Shown here piece by piece: positions 163 to 18,672 of a stretch of DNA of 45,620 nt. This DNA comes from an uncultured Gammaproteobacteria bacterium (GTDB lineage: Bacteria; Patescibacteriota; Microgenomatia; UBA10105; UBA927): positions 1-45,620 of the forward strand of contig CAYIXE010000003.1 of the NCBI GenBank assembly GCA_964367095.1, read 5' to 3'. How positions within the stretch are numbered: position 1 is the stretch's first letter; the number at the start of each line of letters is the position of its first letter. Under the pieces are notes generated by a model, which was given only the letters and a program-made list of their open reading frames with translations, ran no database searches and had not been told where the DNA came from. The position numbers and the translations under genes were made by a program.

Positions 163-495
163 ATGGGAAAAATACTTGCTCAAGCCAAACTCGAAATCAA
201 ACAGCCAACGGACATAGTCAAAATTACTGACATCGGTCAACTCATCTCGGCTTTGGTTGGTACGACGCTTATCATCGCTTCACTTTTGGCATTTCTCTAT
301 CTTCTGATGGGCGGCATCAAATGGATTACATCAGGCGGCGATAAAGCAGGCATGGAAGAAGCGAGAAATAAAATCACGCACGCGATTGTAGGCCTTATCA
401 TCGTAGGAGCAGCATGGGCCATCATGAATCTGGTACAAAACTTCTTGGGTGTACAGATCATTGGTGGAAGCTTGAATTTTCCCAAACCCTACTAA
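163..495 (+). CDS. VirB2/TrbC-like T4SS pilin (CPR pilin family)
   Basis: 110 aa; two hydrophobic helices around GGIKWITSGGDK...ARNKITHAIVGLII, the typical pilin motif. Confidence 0.85.
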   Translation: MGKILAQAKLEIKQPTDIVKITDIGQLISALVGTTLIIASLLAFLYLLMGGIKWITSGGDKAGMEEARNKITHAIVGLIIVGAAWAIMNLVQNFLGVQIIGGSLNFPKPY

Positions 496-542
496 CACAA
501 ACGCTTCTTGAGTATTGAGAATACTTCTCTCATAATACATAT

Positions 543-884
543 ATGGCTGAATGGAGTAATTGTTTTGAGAAAATACTCATCGATGGAAAAGACGTTGCTG
601 AAAAAGTGCCAACTATCCGATGCTTAGAGCCTCTTTTTGCAAATATTGTATATGCCGTGACGGCATTTGGGGGTATCGCTCTCTTTCTCATGCTTTTGGT
701 CGGCGGATTTAACTTCCTTTTCTCGGCAGGCGATCCCAAAAAACTTGAGCAGGCCAGGGGGACCATAAGCCAAGCAATAGTGGGACTTCTCATCATGTCT
801 GCGGCGTATCTTATCATCAATCTCATTGGCAAATTCACAGGAATCGAGAGTATCACCACATTTTCTGTTCCTGAGTTTCAATAA
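543..884 (+). CDS. VirB2/TrbC-like T4SS pilin (CPR pilin family)
   Basis: 113 aa; GGFNFLFSAGDPKKLEQARGTISQAIVGLLI motif; paralog of the upstream gene; N-terminal Cys pair. Confidence 0.85.
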   Translation: MAEWSNCFEKILIDGKDVAEKVPTIRCLEPLFANIVYAVTAFGGIALFLMLLVGGFNFLFSAGDPKKLEQARGTISQAIVGLLIMSAAYLIINLIGKFTGIESITTFSVPEFQ

Positions 885-937
885 AAAGCGTTACGGTCAT
901 TGCGCCATACAAATGGTTTTGAGATAATAATTTTAGT

Positions 938-2650
938 ATGCCACGAATCATAAAATACCCTGTCACAACAATCTTTTTCGTATTTCTTGCCATAATTTCT
1001 CCTATCTCTTCAGTTTTCGCACAAGAAAATGAAGAATGCTCATGGATAGGTGAAACCATGTCGTGCTTTACGCAAGTTCTTAAAAAATCAAACGAGGGAA
1101 CGCTGAATAAAGAAGGGTCAGAATTTGCCACAACCAACAATAGTATCAACGCTCTCTCCATCATGATTGGCGGCGCGTGGGAGAAAACCAAAGAAGGAAC
1201 CGCTATACCCTTAAACTTTCAAAATGGTGCGTTAAGCGGCCTCGGAGGCTCAATGATCGCTATGTATGCTAATCCCCCAGCTTCAACGAAAGAGTATGCG
1301 ATAGATTTAGGAAAAACACTTGGCTTTATACCAAAATCCGCCATGGCTCAAGGCATCGGTTTTGCTGGTTTAGCGCCTCTTCTTCCTCTTTGGAAGGTGT
1401 TTCGTGATGTTTCCTACGGCATACTTGCAATAATTCTTATCGTCGTAGGCCTTATGGTTATGTTTCGCAAAAAAATCGATCCAAAGACGGTGGTCACGGT
1501 CCAAAACTCCATCCCCCGCATCGTGGTTGCATTACTTCTTGTCACTTTTTCATACTTAATCGTAGGTCTTATGATTGATGGCATGTATTTACTGATAACA
1601 CTCTCTATCTCAATGATAAGCTCAGCTACTGGAGAGACAATTGGACAAGCCCTAAGCTTTGCAAATGCTCCCAGAACCGTAGCAAGTGCCATAACTGGCA
1701 ATGATGATGGAACGGTTTATAAACTGTTAAATTGGGTAGTTAATGATAAATTTCCTACTACAGTAGGAAGTGCAGTAGAAAATTTACTTAATACTACATT
1801 AACTACTACCGGCCTAGGCTCATTTACCATTGACACTACTCATACCACAAAGGAGGTAACAGACTCGCTTTTTAATGGCGGGCTTTGGGGCATGACTAAA
1901 TTCTTTTTTGGAAGCGGATTGAATGCGTGGGACGATCTTAGTGCTAGCTTAACCCCGTCCCCGTCAAACAAGTTTGCGGTAAATGCCCTCACTGGGATTC
2001 TTGGATATTTTATTGGTGGTCCCAAGGGGTTTGCTGCAGGACTTACGATTTTTAGCGCACCGGGCCTTTTAGTTTTGATAATACTGTTAGTTTTACTTTT
2101 TGGCTTCGTGCGCATCGTCTTTATGCTCATTGATGCGTACATAAATATCATAATTTCTCTCCTAATCGCACCGTTTCAGTTGGTCCTTGAGGCAATTCCC
2201 GGATCTACTTCTTTTAGTTCGTGGATTCGTCACTTACTCTCTAAAATTATTGTCTTTCCAATTACCATCGTTCTCCTTTTAGTTTCAGCGATACTTACCT
2301 ATCAACCAAATGCCACCTCAATATGGGCGCCGCCGCTTCTTGCAGATGAAGGAGCGTACGGAATGGCCGGCCTCATTGGGCTTGGCATGATCCTTATTAT
2401 TCCAACGTTTGTCGCTGGTATTCAAAAATCTATGAAGGCTGAGCCCGCAATACCTGGAGGAGTCGGTACTATGCTAGGCCCTCTTGGCCAAGGAGTAGGA
2501 TCGCTCATGAATATCTTGTATCAAGGAAGTATGATCAAGAGCATGCTTCCAGGAAAACACGCATCGTCACCATCACACGTAGTTAGAAAGGGATCCCAAC
2601 AAGGATTTGGGGCACTCACTGGTGAAGGCCAAGGCGAGGAACACTCGTAG
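938..2650 (+). CDS. Polytopic membrane protein, VirB6/TrbL-like
   Basis: 570 aa; signal peptide and several TM segments (SIPRIVVALLLVTFSY; AYINIIISLLIAPF...WIRHLL); follows the pilins. Confidence 0.65.
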   Translation: MPRIIKYPVTTIFFVFLAIISPISSVFAQENEECSWIGETMSCFTQVLKKSNEGTLNKEGSEFATTNNSINALSIMIGGAWEKTKEGTAIPLNFQNGALSGLGGSMIAMYANPPASTKEYAIDLGKTLGFIPKSAMAQGIGFAGLAPLLPLWKVFRDVSYGILAIILIVVGLMVMFRKKIDPKTVVTVQNSIPRIVVALLLVTFSYLIVGLMIDGMYLLITLSISMISSATGETIGQALSFANAPRTVASAITGNDDGTVYKLLNWVVNDKFPTTVGSAVENLLNTTLTTTGLGSFTIDTTHTTKEVTDSLFNGGLWGMTKFFFGSGLNAWDDLSASLTPSPSNKFAVNALTGILGYFIGGPKGFAAGLTIFSAPGLLVLIILLVLLFGFVRIVFMLIDAYINIIISLLIAPFQLVLEAIPGSTSFSSWIRHLLSKIIVFPITIVLLLVSAILTYQPNATSIWAPPLLADEGAYGMAGLIGLGMILIIPTFVAGIQKSMKAEPAIPGGVGTMLGPLGQGVGSLMNILYQGSMIKSMLPGKHASSPSHVVRKGSQQGFGALTGEGQGEEHS

Positions 2651-2654
2651 AAAA

Positions 2655-5600
2655 TTAATGTCCTCCGCCGTCTTTTTTCCCTTCTTCGGTCACCGCCTGC
2701 GTGGCGGCGGTAGCAATGGTAATCGCAAAAAGCACAAACCAATATTTGCGAACGAGCGCCCATGTCCGAGATCCCAAGCGCGTCTTAAACTCGTTTCGCA
2801 AATCGTGTGCATACTCATGATGATTGATAAATAGACCCATTTGTTCCATGCCGGAGATAATTTCTTCCATCTTCGCCTCGTCATACGCATTGGCATGCGC
2901 ACCTGTGTAACGCACTGCATATGATATATATTCACCAAATGAATGCGGCCAGTGCGTCACTTTCTCATCCATCAATTTCTCCCACCGTTGTTTCCCTGCA
3001 GCAAATTTCAATGGTTTTAAAATCCATGCATCTTTCAACCATCGCAAGTCCCACTCAGCTATTCCTTTAATAGCCTTCGTTCCCAAATCAAATGGAATCC
3101 ATTCTAAATTAAGGTGCCTGTGTCTGTTCATCTCCAAAAATACACGGGCTAATTCTTTCACTGTCGCCTCAGCAGCATCCGCTCCGGAATAGTCTATAAT
3201 CGCTTCGCGCACCTCTTTAAACTTTTCAAGCGTCTTGAGGGGGTCGGTAGGTGACAATACCATTTCTTGGTTAGAAATGATAGCTAAAATTGCATCGCGT
3301 GCTCTCATCTGTCCGCCTACATCTCTAATCCTTCTGTGCATCGCCACAGTTCCCAACTGATAAAAATTTGTGTCTTTCCAATCAAAGTCAGTCAAAGACA
3401 TGGTAAGAGGAAGACTAAGTTCCGCAACAGCGTCCATTTTTGTATGAAAAGTTTTTCCGCCACCGGTTTCTACTTTTCTCTTTTCATACACAACAGATTG
3501 CATGTCTTCAAGCACTTTTCTCATCTGTTCTTGCCTGCCCGCATCTGTTACTCCAAGCGATGTCAAAAACGGAGACATGAGCGCGTCAAAGTCTTTCTTG
3601 TCTGCCATGTCAATTCTTGCAAATTGCCACTCTTTTTCATGTGCCGACTTTAATTCCGCCAAGGATAACGCCTCTTTAAAATGCCCCCACTCTTTATCGG
3701 TAATGCCGTGTTTTAACAATATTTTTTCTGAATCTTCCTGCAATAACTCCAAAAACTTCGAAGGATTTCTTCTCAGCATTCGGTCAAGAATAGGTTTTCT
3801 TTCCTCTGCGTTTTTAGCAGCCAGCAACTGAATTGATAATGCTTGATTATCCAAAAGCATCGCGTTCTCAGGCAACTTTTTCATATCCATCACTTTGTTT
3901 CGAAATTCATCAAACACACCCTTCTCAAGCCGCCATCCGGTGCCATCATAAAATCCGCCTGTTTTCATAAATCCAGGGCCCAATAATTCACTAAACGATA
4001 TACCGCTTATGTCTTCTGCAAATTCTGCCGTTTCCATGGCGGCTTTTTTTGCCGCGTCGTGCTCTCCATGCTTTGCTTCTCTCCATTCTTTCGTGTGACT
4101 CAACTTCCCGTGAGATTCTCCTCCACCACCAAACAATCCGCTGATTTTTCGCCGGACCCAACTCGTTTTTTTCTCATCTATTTTTTTTGTATTTAATAAA
4201 TTTTTGCGGAAGACATTTCGCGCTGCTTTTCCAAAGTCTCCACCTATACTAAAACGAGACGCAAACACTTCCGGATTAAAAATACGCTGCAGGTCTTCAA
4301 ACGCAGGCGCGCGCATTACGTCTTTTCCGGATGGAGACTCATGCCCCGACGTCCTGGGTGCAACAGACATCATCGCGCCAATCATCGCCATGCGGCCTGA
4401 TCCAATCATCGCAGTTCGGGCCGCCCACAAAGCCATACGCACTTCATACTCCGGCGGCTCTTTACCATTGTGTGTACTTTTATAGTACTCTGTAAGACGC
4501 TTGCGAACCTCAATGTCGACGGGTGACAATCCTCTGGTTTGAAGCAGTTTTTGAGTAAAATTATCGTCAATAGACAATTCTCGCTGAGCATAAATTTTAT
4601 AAAGCCTATTCACTTCCTGCAATTGATCCAATTCTTTTTCGGTTAGTTTCGTGCCATCCTGTTGTTTCTTTATAAGCCCATCGCGCTCGGCCTGAAGTTT
4701 GGTAAGCTTAATGTGCATCTCGGTATAGCTTTGTACATCATCATCCCACAGCATGACGCCCTCTGCCGCTAGATCATTTTGGGTTTGAATTTCATACATG
4801 AGCTTTTGATCCTCTACAGTGAGAGAACTTTGGGTTCTCTCTCCTTTCTCATTTACCCCTTCTTCACGCTGTTTGCTTTTTAATTTCTCAAGAAGCTCTT
4901 CGCGTGTTTTAAATTTCTCGTTGTTCCACTCAACAGGGCTCTCCATGTACTTAACTGCCTCGCCATACTTTCGTCGTTTTTCCGCCATCGTTTCAAACAT
5001 GACGTGTTCATATAGGTTATATGCAACGTTTGAGTTATCGAAGTTTTTATAGAGATGATCTAGGTCAGCGCCGGTCAAAAGCGACATGGCCTTTAAACGA
5101 TCTTTCACATCCCCCGGGTTATACATCAGACCCTTTACTGAATACTCAAATTGCCCTCGACTATCCCAGTGCTTCTGATACAGCTGAACTGCTAAATGAT
5201 ACTCATCGCCGTATTTCCATACCAAGTAATCCTTAAACTCCTGGAAACGCTGCTCGTGGGTTAAGCCCGGGCGCGACTCTTCCCGACCCATAGAATAAAT
5301 CTGATCGATAAAGTTAAAGTACCAATCCGCCTCTCCTTCTGCTCCTCGTTTGAAATATTTACTTATTTCATCTTTGGTGATATCCCGAAACATAAATGCT
5401 TGATTATCAACATGCTCAACCCCTTTGGGAGCATCATTTTTTACTTCCGACCATCGAATAATACCTCGCGTGTCTTCCGCCTCTAGTTTCTCCGCCACCC
5501 ACGCCTCAAGCGTACGCGCGCGGTTGACCGCCTCACGAACAATCTTAGGATCAAGATTGTCTTTCTGTCCTGCCTTCACAATCTCTTTCACCACATTATC

Positions 5601-6263
5601 AACCAAGTGCTGATCACGAAACAGTGAATTAGGATCAACTTCTAATCGAAACTGCAAATTCTGCAATTCTTTCCCGACAGATGTATCCTTTAACAGTGAT
5701 TCATTTGGTCCGTCGTAGAGCTGTTTGATTATTTCTTTATACTCAGGATCAGTGATGCCGGAGGACTCTTCCTGATCTGACAAGCCTGATCCACCTGAAA
5801 TTTCCGGCATTGCGCGAAGTCGTAAATCTGACAAGCTCGGATTTTGTTCAATAATGCGATTTAAATACTTACGGGCCTCAACTCCTGTTTCGCTAAAATA
5901 TCCCGCTTCTGCAGCGACATTTGCAAGACGTTCTCCAATTGAACGCATATAGGTAGCATCTTGTAACATCGCCTCATCTGCTACCAAAAGCGACTCAACT
6001 ATCGAAAATACTCGCTCATCTTTAGGATACTCGCCACTGCCGATGATTTTTTGTGCAGCCTCTTTCACTCCTTGAGATAATTTGTTGGTAAACTCAATCA
6101 TCCGCTCAGCGAACACCGAATGAACATCACTTGGGGCCACATTTTCTATTACTGGCCCCTCAGCTGGTTTTACTTCCTCTAGGTTTGGCTTTGGCTCCGC
6201 GGCCTGAGCTGCTGCTTTTTTCGCAGCCTCAGCAATTCTTCTGGATAATTCTTCTCCTGCCAT
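2655..6263 (-). CDS. Large hypothetical protein, charged and helical, with a C-terminal hydrophobic segment
   Basis: 1202-aa ORF; TAGAAT 6 nt upstream of ATG; no motif recognised. Confidence 0.85.
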   Translation of the reverse strand: MAGEELSRRIAEAAKKAAAQAAEPKPNLEEVKPAEGPVIENVAPSDVHSVFAERMIEFTNKLSQGVKEAAQKIIGSGEYPKDERVFSIVESLLVADEAMLQDATYMRSIGERLANVAAEAGYFSETGVEARKYLNRIIEQNPSLSDLRLRAMPEISGGSGLSDQEESSGITDPEYKEIIKQLYDGPNESLLKDTSVGKELQNLQFRLEVDPNSLFRDQHLVDNVVKEIVKAGQKDNLDPKIVREAVNRARTLEAWVAEKLEAEDTRGIIRWSEVKNDAPKGVEHVDNQAFMFRDITKDEISKYFKRGAEGEADWYFNFIDQIYSMGREESRPGLTHEQRFQEFKDYLVWKYGDEYHLAVQLYQKHWDSRGQFEYSVKGLMYNPGDVKDRLKAMSLLTGADLDHLYKNFDNSNVAYNLYEHVMFETMAEKRRKYGEAVKYMESPVEWNNEKFKTREELLEKLKSKQREEGVNEKGERTQSSLTVEDQKLMYEIQTQNDLAAEGVMLWDDDVQSYTEMHIKLTKLQAERDGLIKKQQDGTKLTEKELDQLQEVNRLYKIYAQRELSIDDNFTQKLLQTRGLSPVDIEVRKRLTEYYKSTHNGKEPPEYEVRMALWAARTAMIGSGRMAMIGAMMSVAPRTSGHESPSGKDVMRAPAFEDLQRIFNPEVFASRFSIGGDFGKAARNVFRKNLLNTKKIDEKKTSWVRRKISGLFGGGGESHGKLSHTKEWREAKHGEHDAAKKAAMETAEFAEDISGISFSELLGPGFMKTGGFYDGTGWRLEKGVFDEFRNKVMDMKKLPENAMLLDNQALSIQLLAAKNAEERKPILDRMLRRNPSKFLELLQEDSEKILLKHGITDKEWGHFKEALSLAELKSAHEKEWQFARIDMADKKDFDALMSPFLTSLGVTDAGRQEQMRKVLEDMQSVVYEKRKVETGGGKTFHTKMDAVAELSLPLTMSLTDFDWKDTNFYQLGTVAMHRRIRDVGGQMRARDAILAIISNQEMVLSPTDPLKTLEKFKEVREAIIDYSGADAAEATVKELARVFLEMNRHRHLNLEWIPFDLGTKAIKGIAEWDLRWLKDAWILKPLKFAAGKQRWEKLMDEKVTHWPHSFGEYISYAVRYTGAHANAYDEAKMEEIISGMEQMGLFINHHEYAHDLRNEFKTRLGSRTWALVRKYWFVLFAITIATAATQAVTEEGKKDGGGH

Positions 6264-6307: not shown

Positions 6308-6871
6308 TCAGAGGAGTACATATAATCCATGCTCTTTCATGTAGTCTTCAATTCCCAAAGGGACAAACGTATCGTTGGGCAATCCTCGTTTGACACGTTC
6401 TCTAATTTTGGTTGATGAAATATCTGTTACGGTAAGAAGCGGATCAGAAACTACCGTCATTCCGCTTGGCAACGGCGCATACGAATACCCTTGTCTTGGG
6501 AAAATATAAAAAGGCAATTTTTTAAGGAGTGCTTTCCAATCTCCCCACTCGTCCATTCGCAAAATCCAATCACTCCCAATTAAAAAGTGATACACATGCT
6601 CTGGTGGTAAAAATCTAAGAAGTTCAACTGTATCTCCGGAGAGTTTGTGCACAATCTCAAAATCACATATTTTTATCCGTTTCGTCTCAAGCATTTTTGT
6701 CATGGCGAGGCGATCATTGGCAGGCGCCATGTCTGTTTTTGGTGGTATTTGTCCGTAATTGGGAAGAAGCCATACTTCATCCGTGGGAGTAAAATCCAAC
6801 ACCTGTTGTGCTATCTGAAGATGCCCTAAATGCGGCGGGTTAAACGCGCCACCAAACAATACAATGTTCAT
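6308..6871 (-). CDS. nadD: Nicotinate-nucleotide adenylyltransferase
   Basis: FGGAFNPPHLGH (HxGH), IGSD and ISSTKIR motifs. Confidence 0.93.
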   Translation of the reverse strand: MNIVLFGGAFNPPHLGHLQIAQQVLDFTPTDEVWLLPNYGQIPPKTDMAPANDRLAMTKMLETKRIKICDFEIVHKLSGDTVELLRFLPPEHVYHFLIGSDWILRMDEWGDWKALLKKLPFYIFPRQGYSYAPLPSGMTVVSDPLLTVTDISSTKIRERVKRGLPNDTFVPLGIEDYMKEHGLYVLL

Positions 6872-6891
6872 GGTATATCACTAAATTTTGT

Positions 6892-7287
6892 TTACGAATA
6901 CAACTTAATATCTGCAATTCTACTAAAATGCTTACGGTTTTTTGTAACTAATACAAGATCATTTACTAAAGCTGTCGCCCCAATGATTAAATCAAAATCT
7001 TCCAGCCTTGATCCTTGTTTTTCTAAACCAACTTTTAAATTAATAAAATTATCAGCTATTTTTTGATCAAATTCTACTACCGCAATATCTAGCTCAATGA
7101 GAAAATCAGTAAAGTATTTACGTGCTTTATCAGGGTTATTTGATCTTCGGATACCATAAACAATCTCAGACCACGTGATAACACTTATAAACAAATCATC
7201 TTTTGCGACGCTTACAATTGAAGAAAGATACTCACTCTTATTATTTAGATGATCAATAATGACATCGCTATCAAGAAGAAGTCCCAT
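6892..7287 (-). CDS. vapC: PIN-domain VapC toxin
   Basis: LLDSDVII, SE, DFDLIIGATA, LVTKNRKHF PIN motifs. Confidence 0.92.
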   Translation of the reverse strand: MGLLLDSDVIIDHLNNKSEYLSSIVSVAKDDLFISVITWSEIVYGIRRSNNPDKARKYFTDFLIELDIAVVEFDQKIADNFINLKVGLEKQGSRLEDFDLIIGATALVNDLVLVTKNRKHFSRIADIKLYS

Positions 7288-7288
7288 G

Positions 7289-7552
7289 TTAATTAAATAT
7301 CTTAAAACTTTTTCTAAAAGATTTAGAAGATTTTACTATTTCTTTTGAATCGTGCGCATCCCAGACTCCTGAATATTTCGCCATTATTTCAGATCGAGAT
7401 ACCGCTTTGTTTGTTGAATTTGCAACTTTAATAATTTTAATCATAGGTTTACCCATTTTTTCCACAATAATTTCATAATCTTTGTAATACGCTAGATTCA
7501 TTAGCTCCCCAAAATTTTTCCTCGCCTCGTATGCAGATATTGTTTTTAACAT
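7289..7552 (-). CDS. Phd/YefM-family antitoxin
   Basis: ISAYEARKNFGELMN...IIVEKMGKP; directly upstream of the PIN toxin. Confidence 0.88.
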   Translation of the reverse strand: MLKTISAYEARKNFGELMNLAYYKDYEIIVEKMGKPMIKIIKVANSTNKAVSRSEIMAKYSGVWDAHDSKEIVKSSKSFRKSFKIFN

Positions 7553-11812: not shown

Positions 11813-14800
11813 TCAACTTTTATCATCTCTTATCGGTACATTTACAAAAGCGCCGGTTGACCAAAAGACTTCCGTCACCTCAAGTGTGGTCGGAGGGCCA
11901 ATATCAATATTAGATGTCATATCTCCTCCTGCAATCGAAGTAGACTTTAACGAAGTAACTATTGGCGACTGGCACTACAGAACGCTTTTTACTGCAGGGT
12001 ATCCAAGGTTTGTTTCTGCTAATTGGCTTGAGCCGCTTATTTCGTTTAACCACACATTAAATATTTCCATGTATATCTACCCCACCCGATCAGAAGAAGT
12101 GCTTGAGAGTTTAAAACGTAAAGTGGGAGAAATGGAAGCCACTATACAATCAGATCTAAAGCGCGGCCGCGTCATCGAGCCGTCTATTCAAGTCGCTCTT
12201 GAAGACGCGCTCGGTCTACAGCAAGAATTGGCAAAAGGGTCGGAACGATTTTTCCAATTTGCTCTCTACGTCACTATACCCGCCAAATCGCGCGAGGATC
12301 TTGATAAAACAACCAATCAGGTAGAGGCAACCTTGGGATCACTTCTTATCGTCACCAAAAAGGCAGTGCTTCAAATGGAGGAAGGATTTAAAACAACGCT
12401 TCCCATGGGAAAAGACAGGCTGGTCATCACACGAAACATGGACACGACGTCTCTTGCGACAACGTTTCCCTTTACCACCTCTGAACTCACCGCAAATGAG
12501 GGAATTTTGTATGGGCTAAACGAACATAATGATTCTTTAATAATTTTTGACCGCTTCACTTTAGAGAATGCAAACGCAGTTGTTTTTGGTAAGTCTATAG
12601 CTGGCTGGGAAAACGTGCTTATGCGAACCAACAATCGTGTGCAGCTTATTTCAATTGGGACCCTTGTGGATCAATTAATCAAGCAGGATGGTATTACATA
12701 TCAAGACAACAACCTAGAGGGCGTTAAGAATCCAAACATAGAAATTTATTCTTTCGGAAAAGCGCTGCAGGGAGGATGGTCTCGTGTTCGCGTAGCCGCC
12801 CGCAAACCATTTACAAAACGGGAACAATTATATGAAGTCACTACAAAAAGCGGTCGCTCAATCACGGTCACAGCAGACCACTGTCTCGTTACGCTACGCG
12901 ACGGAAAAATAATTGCGACTCGCGGCCAAAGAGTGATGGCGGGAGACTGTCTTCCTGTGCCGCGCCACTTACCAAATTCAATACAAACGCCAAAATTTAT
13001 TGAACCAAAAGAGCTTGTCGCTAATTGGCCAGCAACCCTACCCCGAAAAATTGCCATAGACGCGCCGCTTCTCACACTTCTTGGCCTTGCCACAAGTGAG
13101 GGGCTCGTGCGTACGGACACACTAAACATCTACAATATCGACCCCACCGTTCTTGACGCTATCACCCAAAATGCACACGCAGTAGGCGCTCACGTGGCGC
13201 CAAGATTCGATGCGTCTCACCGAATGTGTGGATATAATATCCAACCTAACGCATACGCCAAATTATTTGTTGCATTGGGAGATGGAGGATTATCGGGCGA
13301 TAAGCGCGTTCCGCCGTTTCTTTTTACGGCCTCTAACGAACAAATCGCTCTCTACTTACGCGCATACTTTGAAGGTGACGGCACTGTGTCTGAAAAATCA
13401 GTCTCTTGTACGTCTAAATCACACGAACTCATGTCTGATATCGCATACCTCCTGCTTCGATTTAATATCATCGGACGCATCAAGCCCAAATACAAACGGG
13501 CAACCAATTCACAAAGCATGGGAGGAACATACTGGGAACTAACAATATCTGGGGCTGATGCAATCTCTTCGTATGCTAAAAATATCGGCTTCCTCACTCA
13601 AAGAAAAAACAAAAAAACAGACGCGCTCTTGGGAAAATTATCAAACACCAATGTAGACGTCATTTCTGGGCTTGCGCCTATTCTTACAAAGCTCTATCAA
13701 ATGCTCTATCAGGGTGATGATATAAAAGCGCCTGCTAATCTTTCACCACTTAAACGCGGCATATTTTCTCCTTCGCCACAACAACTAGCACACATTGTTC
13801 TGGCAGCTGAGGCTCGCATTGAAACGCTTGAAAAACAACGCTCACACATCAAATTTCTTAATCAACTCCCAGACTTGGACGCCCTCATTATGAGAGGCAA
13901 AAAAAATAGACGCCTCAACCACCTCCTCTGGTCAGAGCTTGGCTATTCTTGGCAACTTATGAAACAAAAACAAGTCATTCCTGGTGCGATAAATGTGCTT
14001 CGTGCATATAAAACCATCACAGGAGAAACCATAGCATTGTCTGAAATAAAACACATCCTTTATGAATCATTTAAAGAAACCGGCATGTCGCTTCTTCAAT
14101 ATAACAAAGGCCTCTGGACCTCTCTGACCCAAGAAGGCAGGAAAGATAGTGATGTTCGTTATCCCACCATTGTTGAAGCGGTGAACGTAATAAAAAAGCG
14201 CCACAAATCATTACAAACTACTATACGTCACGCAAAGAATATTTTGAAGAAATTGAAACTTCTGGCAACTGCTGATCTTTTTTGGGACCCAGTAGTTTCA
14301 AAAAAATCCATCAAGCATAGTGAGAAATATGTCTACGATCTTATTGTGGATAGTGGAACCTTCTTAACAGGGTCGGGCGGACTTTTTGTGCACAACTCCG
14401 GCGGAGGAAAGTCATATATGGTCAAGCTCGAGGTCATGCGGTCTATGATGTTTGACACTGAAGTTATCATTCTTGATCCTGAAAATGAATATGAAACGTT
14501 AGCGCTTGCAATGGGGGGCGAATATGTGCGATTTCGTTTTGGCTCAGAAACAAAGATAAATCCGTTTGATTTGGCCCTTCTCTCAGGCCAAGATGCAAAT
14601 GCCGGCGAGCTTAGTCAAAAAATATTATCCCTTCATGGATTTTTCCGTGTCGTCATGGGCACGCTCACACCTTCTGAAGACGCGCTGCTTGATCGAGCAC
14701 TCATTCTTACATACAAACAAAAAGGAATTACCCCTGATCCTTTAACTCACAGCAAAGAACCTCCTTTGATGGAAGATTTATACAAAACACTCGTTGGCAT

Positions 14801-15515
14801 GGAAGAAGCGCTTGCTAAGGGCCTAGCTGATCGGATAGAAAAATTTGTACGCGGAAGTTTGGTGGGCATCTTTGACCAACAAACCAATATTGCCATACGA
14901 AACCAGCTCACTGTTTTCTCCATACGCGATCTTGAGGACGAATTGCGGCCTATCGCTATGTTTCTTATATTAGATTTCATCTGGAATAAAATAAGGCACG
15001 ACAAAAGAAGGCGCCTTCTTATCGTTGACGAGGCGTGGTATCTGATGAAATATCAAGATTCTGCACAATTTCTCTATAGCATCGCTAAGCGTGCCCGCAA
15101 ATACTACCTTGGGATGACGACCATTACCCAAGATGTCGAAGATTTTTTGGCGACAGACATGGGTACTGCCATTATTCAAAACAGCAGTATGCAGATACTT
15201 CTTAAACAATCAACCGCAGCTATAGAAAAAATCGCAGACGTATTTTTCTTGTCTGAAGGAGAGAAACACCTTTTGTTGTCTTCAGACGTTGGTCAAGGAT
15301 TATTCTTTGCCGGTCCTGCACACGCGGCAATGCGCGTAGTAGCAAGCCCTGAAGAACATGCGCTTGCCACCACAAGGCCGCAAGACGCACCTATAAAACC
15401 GCCGATTCATGAACCAATTGCCCCTGTGGTAATCCCTACACAAACTACTCCAGAGCATATTCCCGCCACACCTTCAACGAATCGCCCCGTATTTACTGTC
15501 GAGACTGTCACATAA
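11802..15515 (+). CDS. VirB4/TraC-like ATPase, intein-containing
   Basis: After splicing, Walker A reads FGKSGGGKS; DPENEY, INPFD, Walker B IVDEAW, RARKY, ITQD. Probable start ATG 11802 after AAGGAAA. Confidence 0.88.
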   Translation: MSNNQLLSSLIGTFTKAPVDQKTSVTSSVVGGPISILDVISPPAIEVDFNEVTIGDWHYRTLFTAGYPRFVSANWLEPLISFNHTLNISMYIYPTRSEEVLESLKRKVGEMEATIQSDLKRGRVIEPSIQVALEDALGLQQELAKGSERFFQFALYVTIPAKSREDLDKTTNQVEATLGSLLIVTKKAVLQMEEGFKTTLPMGKDRLVITRNMDTTSLATTFPFTTSELTANEGILYGLNEHNDSLIIFDRFTLENANAVVFGKSIAGWENVLMRTNNRVQLISIGTLVDQLIKQDGITYQDNNLEGVKNPNIEIYSFGKALQGGWSRVRVAARKPFTKREQLYEVTTKSGRSITVTADHCLVTLRDGKIIATRGQRVMAGDCLPVPRHLPNSIQTPKFIEPKELVANWPATLPRKIAIDAPLLTLLGLATSEGLVRTDTLNIYNIDPTVLDAITQNAHAVGAHVAPRFDASHRMCGYNIQPNAYAKLFVALGDGGLSGDKRVPPFLFTASNEQIALYLRAYFEGDGTVSEKSVSCTSKSHELMSDIAYLLLRFNIIGRIKPKYKRATNSQSMGGTYWELTISGADAISSYAKNIGFLTQRKNKKTDALLGKLSNTNVDVISGLAPILTKLYQMLYQGDDIKAPANLSPLKRGIFSPSPQQLAHIVLAAEARIETLEKQRSHIKFLNQLPDLDALIMRGKKNRRLNHLLWSELGYSWQLMKQKQVIPGAINVLRAYKTITGETIALSEIKHILYESFKETGMSLLQYNKGLWTSLTQEGRKDSDVRYPTIVEAVNVIKKRHKSLQTTIRHAKNILKKLKLLATADLFWDPVVSKKSIKHSEKYVYDLIVDSGTFLTGSGGLFVHNSGGGKSYMVKLEVMRSMMFDTEVIILDPENEYETLALAMGGEYVRFRFGSETKINPFDLALLSGQDANAGELSQKILSLHGFFRVVMGTLTPSEDALLDRALILTYKQKGITPDPLTHSKEPPLMEDLYKTLVGMEEALAKGLADRIEKFVRGSLVGIFDQQTNIAIRNQLTVFSIRDLEDELRPIAMFLILDFIWNKIRHDKRRRLLIVDEAWYLMKYQDSAQFLYSIAKRARKYYLGMTTITQDVEDFLATDMGTAIIQNSSMQILLKQSTAAIEKIADVFFLSEGEKHLLLSSDVGQGLFFAGPAHAAMRVVASPEEHALATTRPQDAPIKPPIHEPIAPVVIPTQTTPEHIPATPSTNRPVFTVETVT
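12594..14396 (+). mobile_element. Intein (601 aa) with LAGLIDADG homing endonuclease
   Basis: Starts at Ser (GK|SIAG), block B ITVTADH, endonuclease motifs LLGLATSEG and YLRAYFEGDG, block F YVYDL, ends FVHN|S. Confidence 0.93.
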
Positions 15516-15522
15516 ATAATCT

Positions 15523-17676
15523 ATGGCAAACGAACAACTATTGGGCGAATTTGTTACCAACCTGCTTGACGATTTGCAATCAGGCGCTATTACTGCTGAA
15601 GAGGCGATTATAGCGTCTTCTCAATATGAATATGTCCGCTCTTTGTTCTCACAACGCGCTCAAGATTTGGCAGAGGCAACCGCCAGTGGCGATGAAGCGC
15701 TAAAAAATTCTCTTGTGTCCATGTTTTCTCAAACGAAAGGTCGCCTCGCCGAACTACCTGCTTTTTCTTCACAAACACCCGACATTTTGCGGGATGAAAA
15801 ACAAACACGTGATACTGCAACCCTTGAGCGCGCTGCTTTTGCAGCGATACGGAAAGAAACAAAAATAAAAATCTCCTCGCGCAAACAGACGCGGCGAGAA
15901 TTCATACACGCTCTTGTAAATCAGTACAGCGCACGAACCAACAGCCCTATTTCTGAAGCAAAAATGGATTCTTTGGTAGATTCAGCGCTTGCTGGTGCAT
16001 CAAAAGAACAATCTTCTCAAGGAGCAAAACAACACTTCATAAAAGACCTCTCGCAAAAATTTGGGGCTTCTGATTCAACGTTTGAAAAAACTCTTGGGTC
16101 TTTGGTCTCCGAAGACGCCACTGATGCTATCGCGGGGTCATGGAAAGATGTTCAAATTGAAAAAGAAGCACTTGTCACCCTGTTTACCCACTCTGATTTG
16201 TCTCGTCCGGATGTGATCGCTGACGTGTTTATTCACGCAAGCGACAAAGAAAATCTCTCTGACGTCTCGGCACATGCCACAAAACTAGCACAAACTGCGG
16301 GTGCAATTTCGGCTCTTGGCACAAAACATCCAACGATAAAAGGGTCTTTTTTTTCAAGCTCAAACACAAAAGGCGTAGTTAAGGGTCTGCAGCAAGCGGC
16401 CGATGGAATACTCTCTCTTGTCGGAGAACCGCTTCGAGAAATAATTATTAAAGAAAAAATAAACGGGGTAATTCGTTCTATCTTAACAAATACTAATCAG
16501 CTGGCGGACAAATTAGGAGAACAATTTGTCCAATCGTCAGTATTTGGATTTATCTCGCAAAATATCCTTAAAAATACTAACGAAAAACCTTCAATGTCCC
16601 AGTCCACGGCAGTATTTGGCGATGTGTTTTCAAGTATATTTCGCGGGCCCCTTAATATTGCCACGGCGCGGGGCGCTCAAAACCACGTCTATGATTACTT
16701 GGTACTTGCAAGAGCAAGTAGCAACGCGCCAAAAGGCTTTTCTTTTTTAGGCACAAACATTATGCCCTGGCACCTTGGTTCTTTGCACGCTGAATACTTG
16801 CTGGCAACAAAAAGAGGGGCGGCTGGTCGGGGGAGCTGGCGTCCATCATTTGTATTACAAAGCCTGCAAGGCCTTACTTCTCTTGCTGGCAACACTCTCA
16901 CTACTGTTTTTGACCGGTTCGTAGGCTTTGTGTTTTCTGGCTCTTCACTTTCGCGACAAATCCATGCGTCTCGGAGAGCCGCAGCTATGCCCCTCCCACT
17001 TTCTGAAGATCTTCCGCTTCTTCTTGCAATCGTTGTCGTTGCAACGATAGTTCTTCTCTACGTTTTCCCAACATTTTTTAATATCCCCCACCTCTCAATG
17101 ACCCAAAAAATGAGTGCTCTTTTAGCGTCTCTTAATAACGGAAAAGGAGGCGTGGATAACGAACCGAGAAGCCCCAATGTTGCAGCAACAACTTTTACAT
17201 GCTCGTGGTCTGGGCCAAATCCCCCTCCTTCTCCAATAAGCGTGTGCCCCGCACACGCACCAATAAGCCAAGGCCCTTTTAGCGCTAGCGGCTCACACAA
17301 GAATCTAAACGCGTATGATCTTGCCGCCCCGCAGGGAACTTCCGTGCTTGCAGCGCACGGGGGCTATGTCGTGTCATATTATAATGCGTATGCCCCAAAC
17401 CAATTTGTCGACAAAAGCTATGGAAATAATGTTGTTCTCATAGGGACAAATCCCGCAACAGGAAAAACTTTTTGTACAAACTACGCACATTTACTTGGCG
17501 TATCTCCTCTCGTAGTAAGTAATGCAGGAAAACCAATTTTTGTCCCGGCCGGAGAAATTCTTGGTTATGTTGATACAACGGGATATACTTATGGATATGC
17601 GGGCAAAGGAACAGGAACACATTTACATTTTGGTTATAATCAGTCTGGGCCATTTTTGCCCCCAGGGTGTCCATAA
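15523..17676 (+). CDS. Membrane-anchored protein with C-terminal M23 peptidase domain
   Basis: SHKNLNAYDL (HxxxD-like), YGNNV, YAHL, TGTHLHF (HxH); one TM before the peptidase domain. Confidence 0.82.
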   Translation: MANEQLLGEFVTNLLDDLQSGAITAEEAIIASSQYEYVRSLFSQRAQDLAEATASGDEALKNSLVSMFSQTKGRLAELPAFSSQTPDILRDEKQTRDTATLERAAFAAIRKETKIKISSRKQTRREFIHALVNQYSARTNSPISEAKMDSLVDSALAGASKEQSSQGAKQHFIKDLSQKFGASDSTFEKTLGSLVSEDATDAIAGSWKDVQIEKEALVTLFTHSDLSRPDVIADVFIHASDKENLSDVSAHATKLAQTAGAISALGTKHPTIKGSFFSSSNTKGVVKGLQQAADGILSLVGEPLREIIIKEKINGVIRSILTNTNQLADKLGEQFVQSSVFGFISQNILKNTNEKPSMSQSTAVFGDVFSSIFRGPLNIATARGAQNHVYDYLVLARASSNAPKGFSFLGTNIMPWHLGSLHAEYLLATKRGAAGRGSWRPSFVLQSLQGLTSLAGNTLTTVFDRFVGFVFSGSSLSRQIHASRRAAAMPLPLSEDLPLLLAIVVVATIVLLYVFPTFFNIPHLSMTQKMSALLASLNNGKGGVDNEPRSPNVAATTFTCSWSGPNPPPSPISVCPAHAPISQGPFSASGSHKNLNAYDLAAPQGTSVLAAHGGYVVSYYNAYAPNQFVDKSYGNNVVLIGTNPATGKTFCTNYAHLLGVSPLVVSNAGKPIFVPAGEILGYVDTTGYTYGYAGKGTGTHLHFGYNQSGPFLPPGCP

Positions 17677-17679
17677 AAT

Positions 17680-18672
17680 ATGAACAAAAAAAAATTTATG
17701 ATCATAATCATGGTGGTTATTGCATCGCTGCTGACTTGGGCGTTTTTTGGTCGCTCAACTAAGCCTCCTGTAAACACGGCTGTCCCACCCTCGATAATCC
17801 TGTCGCCAATCGACGCGCCTTTTTTGCCTACTGTCCCCAACGGTGGAAATGAGCAATATACAAACATCCCAAGACTTACATTTCAGACAACTATGCCTGG
17901 GTACACTTTCGAAAAATCAAACTTTGTAGGAAAAAACATAAATACCGTTGTCTCTGCGTTTAATTATAATAAACCACTAACAACTATTGAGGGGGCAAAG
18001 ACTAAATATCATTTTGGAAACTCTGGGCTGCAATCCGTCATTATTAGTGATCAGCCCCCAACGTTCTCATATGATGTCGCAACTCTTTCAGGAAAAACAG
18101 TTTCTTCGGACATTCCTTGGTATGAAAACTCTGTGTCTTCACTTGTGTACGAAAAAAATATTATTCCCTCAATATTTAAATTAGAACACCCTACTGTTTC
18201 ATATATTTCACCAATAGACAGCACTCCACACAGGGCCACTCCTCAATCCGCAACTGTTATACAATTGGATTTTGAGCTTTCCCTCAATGGCTTTCCCGTG
18301 TTTGTAAACAACGCTGCGGCTTCGCCTTTAACGGCGCGTTTTGATGGAGACAGGTCCCTATTACAACTTCGTGGTTATTTGTTTCCTTCAGTGAGCACGA
18401 CCCAGTCTATTGTTGGGTTAATTTCATATGAAGAGGCGGTAAACCGGCTAACGTCAAACAGTGGGGTTCTTACGAGCGCAACCACTACAAGCAACGAAAA
18501 TATTGCCTCTGAACAAGCGCCGAAACAAATAGAAGTATCAAGGGTTCGGCTTGGATATCTCTATGAATATTCCTTACAACAGTTTTCGCCTGTGTTTGTC
18601 TTTTTGGGTTCGGGCGTACTTGACAACAAAGACGTTGTTATTACAACAACCGTTGTTTCTGCTCTTCCGTGA
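17680..18672 (+). CDS. Hypothetical exported or membrane-anchored protein
   Basis: 330 aa; N-terminal TM; last gene of the virB4 operon. Confidence 0.75.
   Translation: MNKKKFMIIIMVVIASLLTWAFFGRSTKPPVNTAVPPSIILSPIDAPFLPTVPNGGNEQYTNIPRLTFQTTMPGYTFEKSNFVGKNINTVVSAFNYNKPLTTIEGAKTKYHFGNSGLQSVIISDQPPTFSYDVATLSGKTVSSDIPWYENSVSSLVYEKNIIPSIFKLEHPTVSYISPIDSTPHRATPQSATVIQLDFELSLNGFPVFVNNAAASPLTARFDGDRSLLQLRGYLFPSVSTTQSIVGLISYEEAVNRLTSNSGVLTSATTTSNENIASEQAPKQIEVSRVRLGYLYEYSLQQFSPVFVFLGSGVLDNKDVVITTTVVSALP

What the first reader, a model, noticed from the sequence alone, without database searches (positions are those of the whole stretch)
163..18672. Chromosomal T4SS-like cluster directly beside oriC, with no relaxase or integrase
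Seen: two pilins, VirB6-like, VirD4-like, PrgI, TraC-like, VirB4 and M23 peptidase genes; the cluster ends 2 bp from the dnaN stop. No relaxase, integrase or att repeat is visible, and housekeeping nadD sits inside it. Known: this set resembles monoderm conjugation modules, and related clusters have been noted in Patescibacteria, though their function is unresolved. Inference: a domesticated core apparatus for host attachment, effector delivery or DNA/nucleotide uptake rather than an ICE.
Basis: partly seen in the sequence, partly recalled or inferred. Interest (0 to 1): 0.7.

Follow-up and report, generated by a model that had tools for sequence, protein, structure and literature searches.

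The report
Known Patescibacteria secretion system beside oriC
This is a real, intact, vertically inherited type IV secretion gene cluster next to the replication origin of an ultra-small groundwater bacterium. This arrangement, including the missing relaxase, was already described for Patescibacteria in 2025.

Summary
Window 163-18672 encodes two VirB2-like pilins, a polytopic membrane protein, a 1202-aa unknown protein, nadD, a VapC/Phd pair, a VirD4-like coupling protein, PrgI-like and TrsD-like proteins, VirB4, a membrane M23 hydrolase and a PepSY-like protein. It ends 2 bp from the dnaN stop. DnaA boxes cluster about 1.2 kb further on.

It is not an ICE:
- No relaxase, integrase or att repeat lies in or beside it.
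- The core VirB4 has an ortholog in 37 of 40 relatives, and dnaN lies beside it in 32 of 37 fetched loci.
- The VirB4 tree follows genus, family and order.

All of this, with the "co-opted, non-conjugative, near dnaA" reading, is in print (PMC12102498; essentiality in Saccharibacteria, PMC10633639). The function remains unknown.

Corrections and additions:
- The window is a whole contig. The cluster continues onto contig C13, which adds four pilins, six in all, with a housekeeping left flank.
- "TraC-like + VirB4" is one VirB4 gene split by a 601-aa LAGLIDADG intein in the Walker A loop.
- The genome does encode two Replic_Relax (MOBC-type) proteins, each beside a coupling-protein paralog. They belong with a second, patchily distributed, phylogenetically incongruent T4SS on other contigs.

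The parts
163..495 (+). VirB2-like T4SS pilin 1 (110 aa, two TM segments)
   Evidence: PF18895 T4SS_pilin, 39.2 bits; hydropathy. It is the fifth gene of a six-pilin array that starts on contig C13.
543..884 (+). VirB2-like T4SS pilin 2 (113 aa)
   Evidence: PF18895, 36.5 bits; 47% identical to pilin 1 over 57 aa.
938..2650 (+). Polytopic membrane protein (570 aa) in the VirB6 position; homology not demonstrable
   Evidence: N-terminal signal/TM segment plus about 5-6 TM segments. No Pfam, NCBIfam or PHROG hit. No hit with a PDB profile. The AF2 model has pLDDT 45. Orthologs are present in 12 of 14 same-genus loci.
2655..6263 (-). 1202-aa protein of unknown family, with no signal peptide and a hydrophobic C-terminal tail; last gene of the T4CP-nadD strand
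   Evidence: No Pfam, NCBIfam or PHROG hit. Word-index search: 49 homologs, all about 1180-1280 aa. Profile search: 118 cluster representatives in 1.84 billion proteins. None of 23 distant members has a Pfam domain. The same slot in G018 holds a non-homologous 1365-aa protein.
6308..6871 (-). nadD (nicotinate-nucleotide adenylyltransferase), single copy in the genome
   Evidence: TIGR00482, 116.2 bits against a cut-off of 112.45. tblastn finds only one place in the genome. It lies inside the cluster in 14/14 genus, 6/7 family and 5/6 order loci.
6892..7552 (-). VapC (PIN) toxin 6892-7287 and Phd-type antitoxin 7289-7552; a strain-level insertion
   Evidence: PF01850 58.3 bits and PF02604; NF047863 and TIGR01552. 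Present in 1 of 37 relative loci (G007).
7599..9773 (-). VirD4-like coupling protein (T4CP, 724 aa), no TM segment predicted
   Evidence: PF10412, PF12696 and PF01935; NF045973 CD1115 family, below the cut-off; hydropathy. Adjacent in 14/14 genus and 6/7 family loci. Three paralogs lie elsewhere in the genome.
9848..11143 (+). PrgI/VirB3-like membrane protein fused to a C-terminal CarboxypepD_reg-like domain (431 aa)
   Evidence: PF12666, 26.1 bits (cut-off 27), and PF13620. Conserved before TrsD-VirB4 in all genus, family and order loci.
11147..11812 (+). TrsD-like protein (221 aa; resembles the VirB4 N-terminal domain)
   Evidence: NF041427 TrsD, E 9e-6, below the cut-off; also matches positions 128-233 of NF045975. 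An ortholog lies beside VirB4 in 37 of 37 loci.
11802..15515 (+). VirB4 ATPase gene (the longest ORF starts at 11685; the likely start is the ATG at 11802). 1237 aa with the intein, about 636 aa after splicing
   Evidence: NF045971, 371 bits against a cut-off of 325; PF19044 and PF12846. Intein-free orthologs match the two halves and break at query residues 304 and 905.
12594..14396 (+). 601-aa intein with a LAGLIDADG homing endonuclease, inserted in the Walker A loop (FGK|S...HN|SGGGKS)
   Evidence: PF14890 52.7 bits and PF14528 59.4 bits. Ser1, the TADH block B, the terminal HN and the +1 Ser can be read. Absent from all 14 same-genus orthologs and present in 2 of 37 relatives.
15523..17676 (+). 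Bitopic protein: conserved about 490-aa N-terminal domain, TM at about 499-517, extracellular M23 peptidase domain (VirB1-type role)
   Evidence: PF01551, 38 bits, residues 596-709; hydropathy. Residues 1-539 are 65% identical to G004, but the ectodomain is unrelated there. The ectodomain varies among relatives.
17680..18672 (+). Membrane-anchored protein with three PepSY/YycI/YpeB-like domains (330 aa); last gene of the cluster
   Evidence: AF2 pLDDT 82.8. Foldseek: 5coz E 7e-7, YycI E 2e-6. VIA-align: 5coz Z 14.1, YycI 10.2, YpeB 10.2, YycH 9.9.
18675..19781 (-). dnaN, convergent with the cluster (2-bp gap)
   Evidence: PF00712, PF02767 and PF02768; sequence.
19834..19969 (.). DnaA-box cluster (5 boxes, 2 perfect) in the dnaN-dnaA spacer: the probable oriC
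   Evidence: GC-skew minimum.
19989..21347 (-). dnaA
   Evidence: PF00308, 208 bits, and PF08299.

Best explanation
[quoted passage not shown] That system derives from monoderm MPF_FATA conjugation machinery. Here it occurs in a groundwater member of the Microgenomates group (Gottesmanbacteria-like).

Shown:
- An intact gene set comprising a six-gene VirB2-like pilin array, a polytopic membrane protein, a PrgI/VirB3-like protein, a TrsD-like protein, VirB4, a VirD4-like coupling protein and a membrane-anchored cell-wall hydrolase.
- The set is fixed beside dnaN-oriC-dnaA, has no relaxase or integrase, and is inherited with the species tree.
- VirB4 can be made only after a LAGLIDADG intein splices out of its Walker A loop.

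Inferred:
- The ATPases energise a cytoplasmic-membrane channel, and the M23 protein opens peptidoglycan.
- The variable pilins form a pilus that contacts the host cell on which such bacteria live.
- The machine moves macromolecules between symbiont and host rather than conjugating DNA.

Direction and substrate are open. My odds are about 40% for coupling-protein-dependent export of protein(s), about 30% for import of host nucleic acids, and the rest for adhesion or other roles. The position beside oriC fits high gene dosage and stable inheritance, as proposed in print.
For: Gene content.

No relaxase:
- PF03432, PF08751, PF02486, PF01076, PF03389 and PF07514 each give 0 hits in the genome, which is 98.6% complete.
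- The only relaxase-like genes (PF13814) lie on contigs C69 and C72.

No integrase:
- Only two tyrosine recombinases exist in the genome, and neither flanks the cluster.
- There are no att-like repeats.

Left border:
- In G004, G011, G014 and G017 the DNA upstream of pilin 1 is syntenic with the end of contig C13 (four pilins, a sigma-70 factor, Yip1, HMG-CoA reductase).

Vertical inheritance:
- The core VirB4 is present in 37 of 40 relatives.
- dnaN lies in 32 of 37 fetched loci. In 30 it is convergent, 0.6-4.4 kb downstream of VirB4.
- In the VirB4 tree the genus (15 rows, SH-aLRT 99), family (22 rows, 100), sister family (6 rows, 96) and order (28 rows, 99) are each monophyletic.
- Composition is not island-like.

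Literature:
- PMC12102498 (abstract, sections 12-14) describes the same system, its lack of relaxases and its proximity to dnaA/dnaN in Microgenomatia and Paceibacteria.
- PMC10633639 (passages) shows the T4SS and its pilin genes are essential for epibiotic growth of a Saccharibacterium.
- PMC12857230 (passages) states that its pilin array has six genes.

Weak hint of expression: contigs with 0 differences to six cluster genes occur in a metatranscriptome library of another study. DNA carry-over is not excluded.
Against: - No experiment exists for any Microgenomates organism, and the host is unknown.
- VirB6 and VirB8 equivalents could not be identified by homology.
- PrgI scores 0.9 bits under the Pfam cut-off, and TrsD scores far under its NCBIfam cut-off.
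- Against protein export: in S. epibionticum the coupling protein is reported as non-essential while the rest of the system is essential (PMC12102498, section 13).
- Three relatives gave no VirB4 match: G002 (84% complete), G003 (93%) and G006 (90%).
- In two class-level relatives, G037 and G033, dnaN was not beside VirB4 although DNA was available.
- I did not place this VirB4 in a global tree with reference MPF classes.
Confidence: 0.85

Rival explanations
1. The cluster is, or recently was, an integrative conjugative element or integrated plasmid whose relaxase and integrase lie just off the contig.
For: - The cluster starts 163 bp from a contig end.
- It keeps a coupling protein.
- The genome holds Replic_Relax genes and a second T4SS.
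Against: - The off-contig flank, reconstructed from four relatives, is four pilins followed by housekeeping genes.
- Synteny with dnaN and nadD holds through genus, family and order.
- The tree is congruent with taxonomy.
- The Replic_Relax genes are linked to the other T4SS paralog. They lie 6-21 kb from it in G011, G013, G014 and G021.
Confidence: 0.03
2. The apparatus is an uptake machine. Pilus and channel import host DNA, RNA or nucleotides, as in the ComB system of Helicobacter, to feed an organism that cannot make nucleotides.
For: - PMC11665869 (passages) names the T4SS as a candidate nucleotide-acquisition route, because ComEC is dispensable in S. epibionticum.
- The preprint 10.64898/2026.06.21.733656 (passages) reports uptake of host RNA and tubular structures that may be T4SS pili in a cultivated relative.
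- There is no relaxase.
Against: - A coupling protein, normally a receptor for exported substrates, is kept in the locus through genus and family.
- No nuclease or nucleic-acid-binding gene was recognised in the cluster.
- Nothing in the sequence shows direction.
Confidence: 0.3
3. The system mainly builds an adhesive, antigenically variable pilus for host attachment, with no substrate transfer.
For: - A six-gene array of divergent pilins.
- Pilin arrays are reported as common and variable in Microgenomatia (PMC12102498, section 13).
Against: - A coupling protein and a full set of channel and ATPase genes are conserved.
- Type IV pili are the known adhesion organelle in Saccharibacteria (PMC12857230, passages).
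Confidence: 0.1

Closest known systems
Patescibacteria-clade T4SS (Quinonero-Coronel et al. 2025, PMC12102498), with the S. epibionticum ML1 locus SEML1_0006-0019 as the experimental example (Wang et al. 2023, PMC10633639)
   Same: - VirB4 of MPF_FATA type with TrsD and PrgI beside it.
- A VirB2-like pilin array, six genes here and in ML1.
- A peptidoglycan hydrolase downstream of virB4.
- No relaxase.
- Chromosomal, close to dnaA/dnaN.
   Different: - The coupling protein lies inside the locus here. The paper finds only 148 of 5,713 T4CP genes near virB4.
- VirB4 carries an intein, which the paper's main text does not mention (0 occurrences of the word).
- nadD and a toxin-antitoxin pair are embedded.
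- The organism belongs to the Microgenomates, which have no cultivated representative known to me (recalled).
MPF_FATA conjugative T4SSs of Firmicutes (pCF10 Prg, pGO1 Trs, C. difficile CTn CD1110/CD1115 families)
   Same: - VirB4 passes the NCBIfam CD1110 family model.
- PrgI-like, TrsD-like and VirD4-like proteins and a membrane-bound cell-wall hydrolase.
- No outer-membrane core.
   Different: - No relaxase, oriT or integrase.
- It has VirB2-like pilins, which Gram-positive systems lack (PMC12857230).
- It is fixed at oriC and inherited vertically.
The second T4SS of the same genome (contig C60) with Replic_Relax/T4CP modules (C69, C72)
   Same: Same gene order: pilin, pilin fusion, PrgI, TrsD-like, VirB4, M23. 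VirB4 is 39% identical.
   Different: - Compact (5 kb) and intein-free.
- Found in 7 of 40 relatives.
- Its tree is incongruent with taxonomy: the copies in two different genera sit on end branches of 0.012 changes per column each.
- It is linked to a MOBC-type Replic_Relax gene and its own coupling protein in four relatives.
Inteins in P-loop ATPases, including the five VirB4 inteins listed for Firmicutes and Proteobacteria by Novikova et al. 2016 (PMC4760082, one passage read)
   Same: A class 1 intein with a LAGLIDADG endonuclease, sited in the nucleotide-binding loop and sporadic among close relatives.
   Different: - The host is the Patescibacteria core VirB4.
- Homologous inteins occupy two sites five residues apart: 36 at K|SGxGKS, 79 at GxGK|S and 5 unclassified, out of the 120 listed homologs.
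PepSY-domain regulators of cell-wall enzymes (YpeB with SleB; YycH/YycI with WalK)
   Same: The protein at 17680-18672 has an N-terminal anchor and three domains of this fold, and it follows a cell-wall hydrolase gene.
   Different: No sequence similarity is detectable. A partnership with the M23 domain is not shown.

Membership tests
Patescibacteria-clade T4SS (MPF_FATA-derived) | VirB4 ATPase of the MPF_FATA type | tested here: met
   NF045971 (CD1110 family), 371.1 bits against a cut-off of 325; PF19044 and PF12846 above their cut-offs. Placement inside the published clade in a global tree was not done.
Patescibacteria-clade T4SS (MPF_FATA-derived) | VirB2-like pilin genes near virB4, often as an array | tested here: met
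   Two PF18895 hits above the cut-off in the window. Four more lie at the abutting end of C13.
Patescibacteria-clade T4SS (MPF_FATA-derived) | PrgI/VirB3-like protein beside virB4 | tested here: inconclusive
   PF12666, 26.1 bits against a cut-off of 27, E 1.3e-5. Position and one TM segment fit. The paralog on C60 passes with 34.2 bits.
Patescibacteria-clade T4SS (MPF_FATA-derived) | TrsD-like protein directly upstream of virB4 | tested here: inconclusive
   NF041427, E 9e-6 but 25.6 bits against a cut-off of 200. An ortholog lies beside VirB4 in 37 of 37 loci.
Patescibacteria-clade T4SS (MPF_FATA-derived) | No relaxase associated with the cluster | tested here: met
   None in the window ORFs. 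Six MOB Pfam families give 0 hits genome-wide. The PF13814 hits lie on other contigs.
Patescibacteria-clade T4SS (MPF_FATA-derived) | Chromosomal, near dnaA/dnaN, inherited within classes | tested here: met
   2-bp gap to dnaN. dnaN lies in 32 of 37 relative loci. The tree is congruent with taxonomy.
Integrative conjugative element / conjugative plasmid | Relaxase (MOB) gene in the element | tested here: not met
Integrative conjugative element / conjugative plasmid | Integrase and flanking att repeats | tested here: not met
   No recombinase flanks the locus. No repeats beyond short AT-rich chance matches. The left end lies on another contig, so repeats across the join could not be scanned.
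Integrative conjugative element / conjugative plasmid | Patchy distribution and a gene tree incongruent with the species tree | tested here: not met
   37 of 40 relatives have it. Genus, family and order are monophyletic.
Class 1 intein with LAGLIDADG homing endonuclease | Splicing motifs: Ser/Cys at position 1, TxxH block B, terminal HN, Ser/Cys/Thr at +1 | tested here: met
   S304, TADH, H903-N904 and S905 in the 1276-aa frame. PF14890 52.7 bits and TIGR01445 35.9 bits are above their cut-offs.
Class 1 intein with LAGLIDADG homing endonuclease | Precise absence from orthologous alleles, leaving an intact host motif | tested here: met
   In all 14 same-genus orthologs the matches break at query residues 304 and 905. 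The 8 intein-free core orthologs in the 12-row subset alignment read FGK/FAK followed by SGxGKS without interruption.
Class 1 intein with LAGLIDADG homing endonuclease | Protein splicing and endonuclease activity | not testable with these tools
   Needs expression of the precursor.
VirB6/PrgH family (for 938-2650) | Sequence or structural homology to VirB6 | tested here: inconclusive
   No hit in Pfam or NCBIfam, and none with a PDB profile. The AF2 model is too poor to search. Only the polytopic topology and the position fit.
MOBC-type relaxase (for C69 2968-3741 and C72 2273-3046) | Replic_Relax domain | tested here: met
   PF13814, 56.9 and 46.4 bits against a cut-off of 25.3. Nicking activity is not testable here.

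The most novel reading that the evidence does not exclude
Two slots in this otherwise rigid, oriC-anchored locus are exchangeable cassettes tuned to the host.

1. A giant, signal-less protein is co-oriented with the coupling protein. It is 1202 aa here and an unrelated 1365-aa protein in a sister genus. It may be the system's translocated substrate, which would make this a coupling-protein-dependent effector exporter.

2. The extracellular enzymatic head of the VirB4-adjacent hydrolase swaps together with its downstream partner gene. The observed pairs are M23 with a PepSY protein, a lysozyme-like domain with a 138-aa protein, and an unknown domain with a 185-aa protein. This resembles polymorphic toxin/immunity pairs and may be aimed at the host cell wall.

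Separately, relaxase-linked conjugation in this lineage would be carried out by a distinct, mobile VirB4 paralog.
Probability: 0.15. Interest if true: 0.7.

Novelty: already known. Interest (0 to 1): 0.3.

Why it matters
The Patescibacteria T4SS is the only T4SS reported to be essential for its bearer (PMC12857230, passages), and its substrate is unknown. This locus adds nothing to the published concept, but it is a clean and complete example from the uncultivated Microgenomates.

Its useful features are:
- It keeps the coupling protein in the locus.
- It sits in a genome that also carries a mobile, relaxase-linked paralog. The 'domesticated' and 'conjugative' forms can therefore be compared side by side.
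- Its variable slots (giant protein, hydrolase head and partner) are concrete candidates for host-specific parts.
- The intein in the Walker A loop means VirB4 activity depends on protein splicing.

Tried and rejected
- **VirB6 test for 938-2650.** Pfam on all 15 orthologs found nothing relevant. A PDB profile search gave 0 hits at E<=10. The AF2 model reached pLDDT 45 and was not searched.
- **VirB8 test for 17680-18672.** Foldseek and VIA-align listed PepSY/YycI-type folds and no VirB8-like chain. This does not exclude one.
- **The 1202-aa protein.** The ESM Atlas gave no usable hit. The PDB profile search gave only chance-level hits. There is no Pfam domain in it or in 23 distant relatives. 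hhalign against the positional counterpart in G018 gave probability 3%.
- **Complex prediction of the M23 ectodomain with the PepSY protein.** The result was 'no answer': scores 0.01, 0.62 and 0.21, with the median under the mark. It counts neither for nor against binding.
- **Read laying.** One joint, 12526->15115 in one DNA contig with a 26-letter side, matches no intein boundary and was disregarded. No intein-free allele was seen in the four runs. All runs were contigs, so depth and absence say nothing.
- **Earlier notes of this scan.** None were found for this place.
- **Not available or not done.** CONJscan/MacSyFinder and a global VirB4 tree with MPF references were not available or not run. 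The supplements of PMC12102498 (Tables S3, S4) were not opened; they may already list this genome, T4CP-linked loci or double-VirB4 genomes.
- **Literature searches for the intein.** 'intein'+'VirB4' returned 8 papers, of which only PMC4760082 was relevant. 'intein'+'Candidate Phyla Radiation' returned 6 papers, none on VirB4 judging by title and abstract start.

Full report
**1. What is in the window**

The window is the whole 45,620-bp contig C3 of a metagenome-assembled genome. The genome has 1.155 Mb in 129 contigs, is 98.6% complete and 0.2% contaminated.

Pfam and NCBIfam scans of the ORFs give this gene order:
- pilin (163-495)
- pilin (543-884)
- a 570-aa polytopic membrane protein (938-2650)
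- on the other strand: a 1202-aa protein of no known family (2655-6263), nadD (6308-6871), VapC (6892-7287), a Phd-type antitoxin (7289-7552) and a VirD4-like coupling protein (7599-9773)
- on the plus strand again: a PrgI-like fusion protein (9848-11143), a TrsD-like protein (11147-11812), VirB4 (11802-15515), a 717-aa protein with a C-terminal M23 peptidase (15523-17676) and a 330-aa anchored protein (17680-18672)

The last stop codon ends at 18672, and the dnaN stop on the other strand is at 18675-18677, so the 2-bp gap is exact. dnaA follows at 19989-21347.

Two lines of evidence place oriC about 1.2 kb from the cluster:
- Five DnaA boxes, two of them perfect, lie in the dnaN-dnaA spacer. 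The window holds 28 matches against 12.4 expected.
- The cumulative GC skew turns at 18-19 kb.

**2. Corrections to the observation**

- The cluster begins 163 bp from a contig end, so its left border could not be seen. In four relatives with longer contigs (G004, G011, G014, G017) the DNA upstream of pilin 1 is syntenic, gene for gene, with the 3' end of contig C13 of this genome. That end carries four more pilins running off the contig, preceded by a sigma-70 factor, a Yip1 protein and HMG-CoA reductase. The real locus is therefore a six-pilin array plus the genes above, about 20 kb in all, with a housekeeping left flank.
- 'TraC-like' and 'VirB4' are one VirB4 gene. Its frame holds a 601-aa intein (residues 304-904 of the 1276-aa ORF; nt 12594-14396) with a LAGLIDADG endonuclease domain.
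- 'VirB6-like' for 938-2650 rests only on topology and position. Pfam, NCBIfam, PHROGs, a PDB profile search and a structure prediction (pLDDT 45) gave nothing.

**3. Is it an ICE?**

No.
- Six relaxase Pfam families (Relaxase, TrwC, Rep_trans, Mob_Pre, MobA_MobL, TraI_2) give no hit in the genome. Each family was found in control genomes.
- Only two tyrosine recombinases exist. One is on C11, and one is a Xer-like gene at 41505-42377, 23 kb away across oriC.
- No att-like repeats were found, and base composition is uniform.

Among 40 relatives, 37 have the orthologous VirB4 at 57-94% identity. The three without a match are 84, 93 and 90% complete.

I fetched up to 20 kb around all 37 orthologs and compared the window's proteins with them:
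- dnaN lies in the locus in 32 of 37. In 30 it is convergent, 0.6-4.4 kb downstream of VirB4. In two it is part of a dnaA-dnaN pair upstream.
- Of the five loci without dnaN, three contigs end within 2.7 kb, and two (G037, G033) had room.
- nadD sits inside the cluster in 14/14 genus, 6/7 family, 5/6 order and 0/10 class-level loci.
- The coupling protein is adjacent in 14/14 genus, 6/7 family and 1/6 order loci.
- The VapC/Phd pair occurs in 1 of 37 loci.

I built a VirB4 tree of 46 rows: 38 core copies including the window and 8 second copies. The truncated G001 second copy was left out. The method was quick IQ-TREE with SH-aLRT support only. It recovers the genus (15 rows, 99), the family (22 rows, 100), the sister family (6 rows, 96) and the order (28 rows, 99) as single groups. 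This is vertical inheritance.

**4. The genome is not free of conjugation genes**

The Replic_Relax family (PF13814, the MOBC-type family) hits two genes above the cut-off, on contigs C69 and C72. Each lies beside a coupling-protein paralog.

Contig C60 holds a second, compact T4SS in the same gene order: pilin, pilin fusion, PrgI, TrsD-like, an intein-free VirB4 of 599 aa, and a 206-aa M23 protein. Its VirB4 is 39% identical to the core one.

This paralog behaves differently from the core system:
- It occurs in 7 of 40 relatives.
- It forms its own clade on a long branch, and its tree ignores taxonomy. The copies from two different genera sit on end branches of 0.012 changes per column each.
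- Replic_Relax occurs in 5 of 40 relatives, and four of these also have the second VirB4. In those four (G011, G013, G014, G021) the two genes lie 6-21 kb apart on one contig.
- In G013 the paralog is contiguous with DUF2958, Replic_Relax, T4CP and defence-like cargo (AAA_13, NERD, PLD).

So a candidate conjugative element coexists with the oriC-proximal system. The contrast strengthens the non-ICE reading of the latter.

**5. The intein**

All 14 same-genus orthologs lack it, and their matches break at query residues 304 and 905. The 8 intein-free core orthologs in my 12-row subset alignment read FGK/FAK followed by SGxGKS without interruption. The element has Ser1, a TADH block B, a terminal HN and Ser+1.

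Only two relatives carry an intein there: G028 (same order) and G031 (same class).

A search with the intein alone found 219 proteins. Of the 120 listed, 118 also carry the VirB4 P-loop domain. The named sources are Gottesman-, Shapiro-, Davies-, Ames- and Chisholmbacteria, with some Parcubacteria.

These inteins use two insertion points five residues apart in the Walker A loop. By pattern matching, 36 are at K|SGxGKS (as here), 79 are at GxGK|S, and 5 are unclassified.

VirB4 inteins are on record for Firmicutes and Proteobacteria (five cases; PMC4760082, one passage). The Patescibacteria T4SS paper does not mention inteins, and two literature searches found no report.

**6. Other anatomy**

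- The 330-aa last gene folds with confidence (pLDDT 82.8). It has an N-terminal anchor and three PepSY/YycI/YpeB-like domains (5coz Z 14.1; YycI and YpeB 10.2; YycH 9.9).
- The protein before it has a conserved N-terminal part: residues 1-539 are 65% identical to the closest relative, G004. The ectodomain, however, is unrelated there.
- Across relatives the ectodomain is M23 in most. In these it is usually followed by a protein of about 316-341 aa; the partner gene was not found in every M23 locus. It is lysozyme-like (weak SLT_3 hits) in three members of the sister family. No domain is recognisable in others, which have different downstream genes.
- The 1202-aa protein belongs to a small family: 49 proteins by word search and 118 cluster representatives by profile search. 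No domain is recognisable even in distant members.
- In other genera of the family, the same slot holds large proteins that are not detectably related.

These two variable slots are the basis of my most novel reading. They remain inference.

**7. Known or new**

Names attached to the nearest database relatives place the organism in the Microgenomates group.

Quinonero-Coronel et al. 2025 (PMC12102498; abstract and sections 12-14 read) describe exactly this system:
- a monophyletic Patescibacteria VirB4 clade nested in MPF_FATA
- TrsD, PrgI and pilin arrays near virB4
- relaxases in only 103 genomes, mostly MOBC and often next to t4cp
- dnaA/dnaN close to virB4 in Microgenomatia and Paceibacteria
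- the conclusion that the system was co-opted for a non-conjugative role, with gene dosage at the origin as the rationale

Other literature:
- Wang et al. 2023 (PMC10633639, passages) showed that the T4SS and its pilin genes are essential for epibiotic growth of a Saccharibacterium. A later review states that its pilin array has six genes (PMC12857230, passages).
- Later texts call its role unknown and discuss effector delivery or nucleic-acid uptake (PMC11665869 and PMC12857230, passages).
- A 2026 preprint links possible T4SS pili to feeding on host RNA.

The finding as given is therefore already known. This locus is an ordinary member, with the coupling protein in the locus (the minority case in the paper) and an intein-bearing VirB4.

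**8. Expression and occurrence**

Near-identical DNA is assembled in groundwater metagenomes of several studies.

One metatranscriptome library of another study holds short contigs with no differences to six cluster genes, including the intein. The tool warns that DNA may be present in such libraries, so this is only a hint.

**9. Verdict**

This is a real, complete, vertically inherited Patescibacteria T4SS at oriC, and it is not an ICE. The function is unresolved. I lean slightly towards coupling-protein-dependent protein export over nucleic-acid import. Interest is low for the finding itself and moderate for the side observations.

Noticed in passing
window 12594-14396: A LAGLIDADG intein interrupts the Walker A loop of VirB4. 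Homologous inteins in Patescibacteria VirB4 genes use two insertion sites five residues apart (36, 79 and 5 unclassified of the 120 listed). The intein is absent from all 14 same-genus orthologs.
   Followed up: yes
G000 contigs C60 (L003), C69 (L005), C72 (L006), C31 (L004): A second compact T4SS, two Replic_Relax (MOBC-type) genes each beside a T4CP paralog, and a fourth T4CP paralog. The second VirB4 is patchy (7 of 40 relatives), its tree is incongruent with taxonomy, and it is linked to Replic_Relax in four relatives. This is a candidate conjugative element.
   Followed up: yes
window 15523-18672 and loci L038-L074: The hydrolase after VirB4 keeps its N-terminal 540 aa but swaps its extracellular head (M23, lysozyme-like or unknown) together with the downstream gene (PepSY-like of about 330 aa, 138 aa, or 185 aa). 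It behaves like a cassette.
   Followed up: partly
window 2655-6263; L056:1864-5961: The slot between the polytopic membrane protein and nadD holds a giant signal-less protein. It belongs to a small unknown family here and is not detectably related in a sister genus.
   Followed up: partly
window 6892-7552: A VapC/Phd toxin-antitoxin pair is inserted between nadD and the coupling protein. It is shared with only one relative (G007).
   Followed up: yes
window 21456-22360: A DUF6922/AbiEii toxin-antitoxin-like pair lies directly upstream of dnaA. In the closest relatives (G004, G007) dnaA is followed at once by the next gene, so this is a strain-level insertion at the origin.
   Followed up: partly
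window 22373-25041: A MurL-like epimerase (NF041275, 231.8 bits, under its cut-off of 700) lies next to a MurD-like ligase. This suggests the alternative L-Glu-then-epimerise route of peptidoglycan synthesis.
   Followed up: no
window 41505-45313: A Xer-like tyrosine recombinase, tRNA-Met (42812-42884), an HTH protein and a Fic-domain protein lie together. This may be a small integrated element or housekeeping Xer.
   Followed up: no
window 7599-9773: The coupling protein matches a phage protein family of unknown function strongly (phrog_5156, E 2.9e-72). No transmembrane segment is predicted, unlike classical VirD4.
   Followed up: no
G000 C13:11310-11836 (L007 2948-3876): Two further T4SS_pilin genes lie next to a SpoIID-like protein, about 9 kb upstream of the main pilin array.
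   Followed up: no
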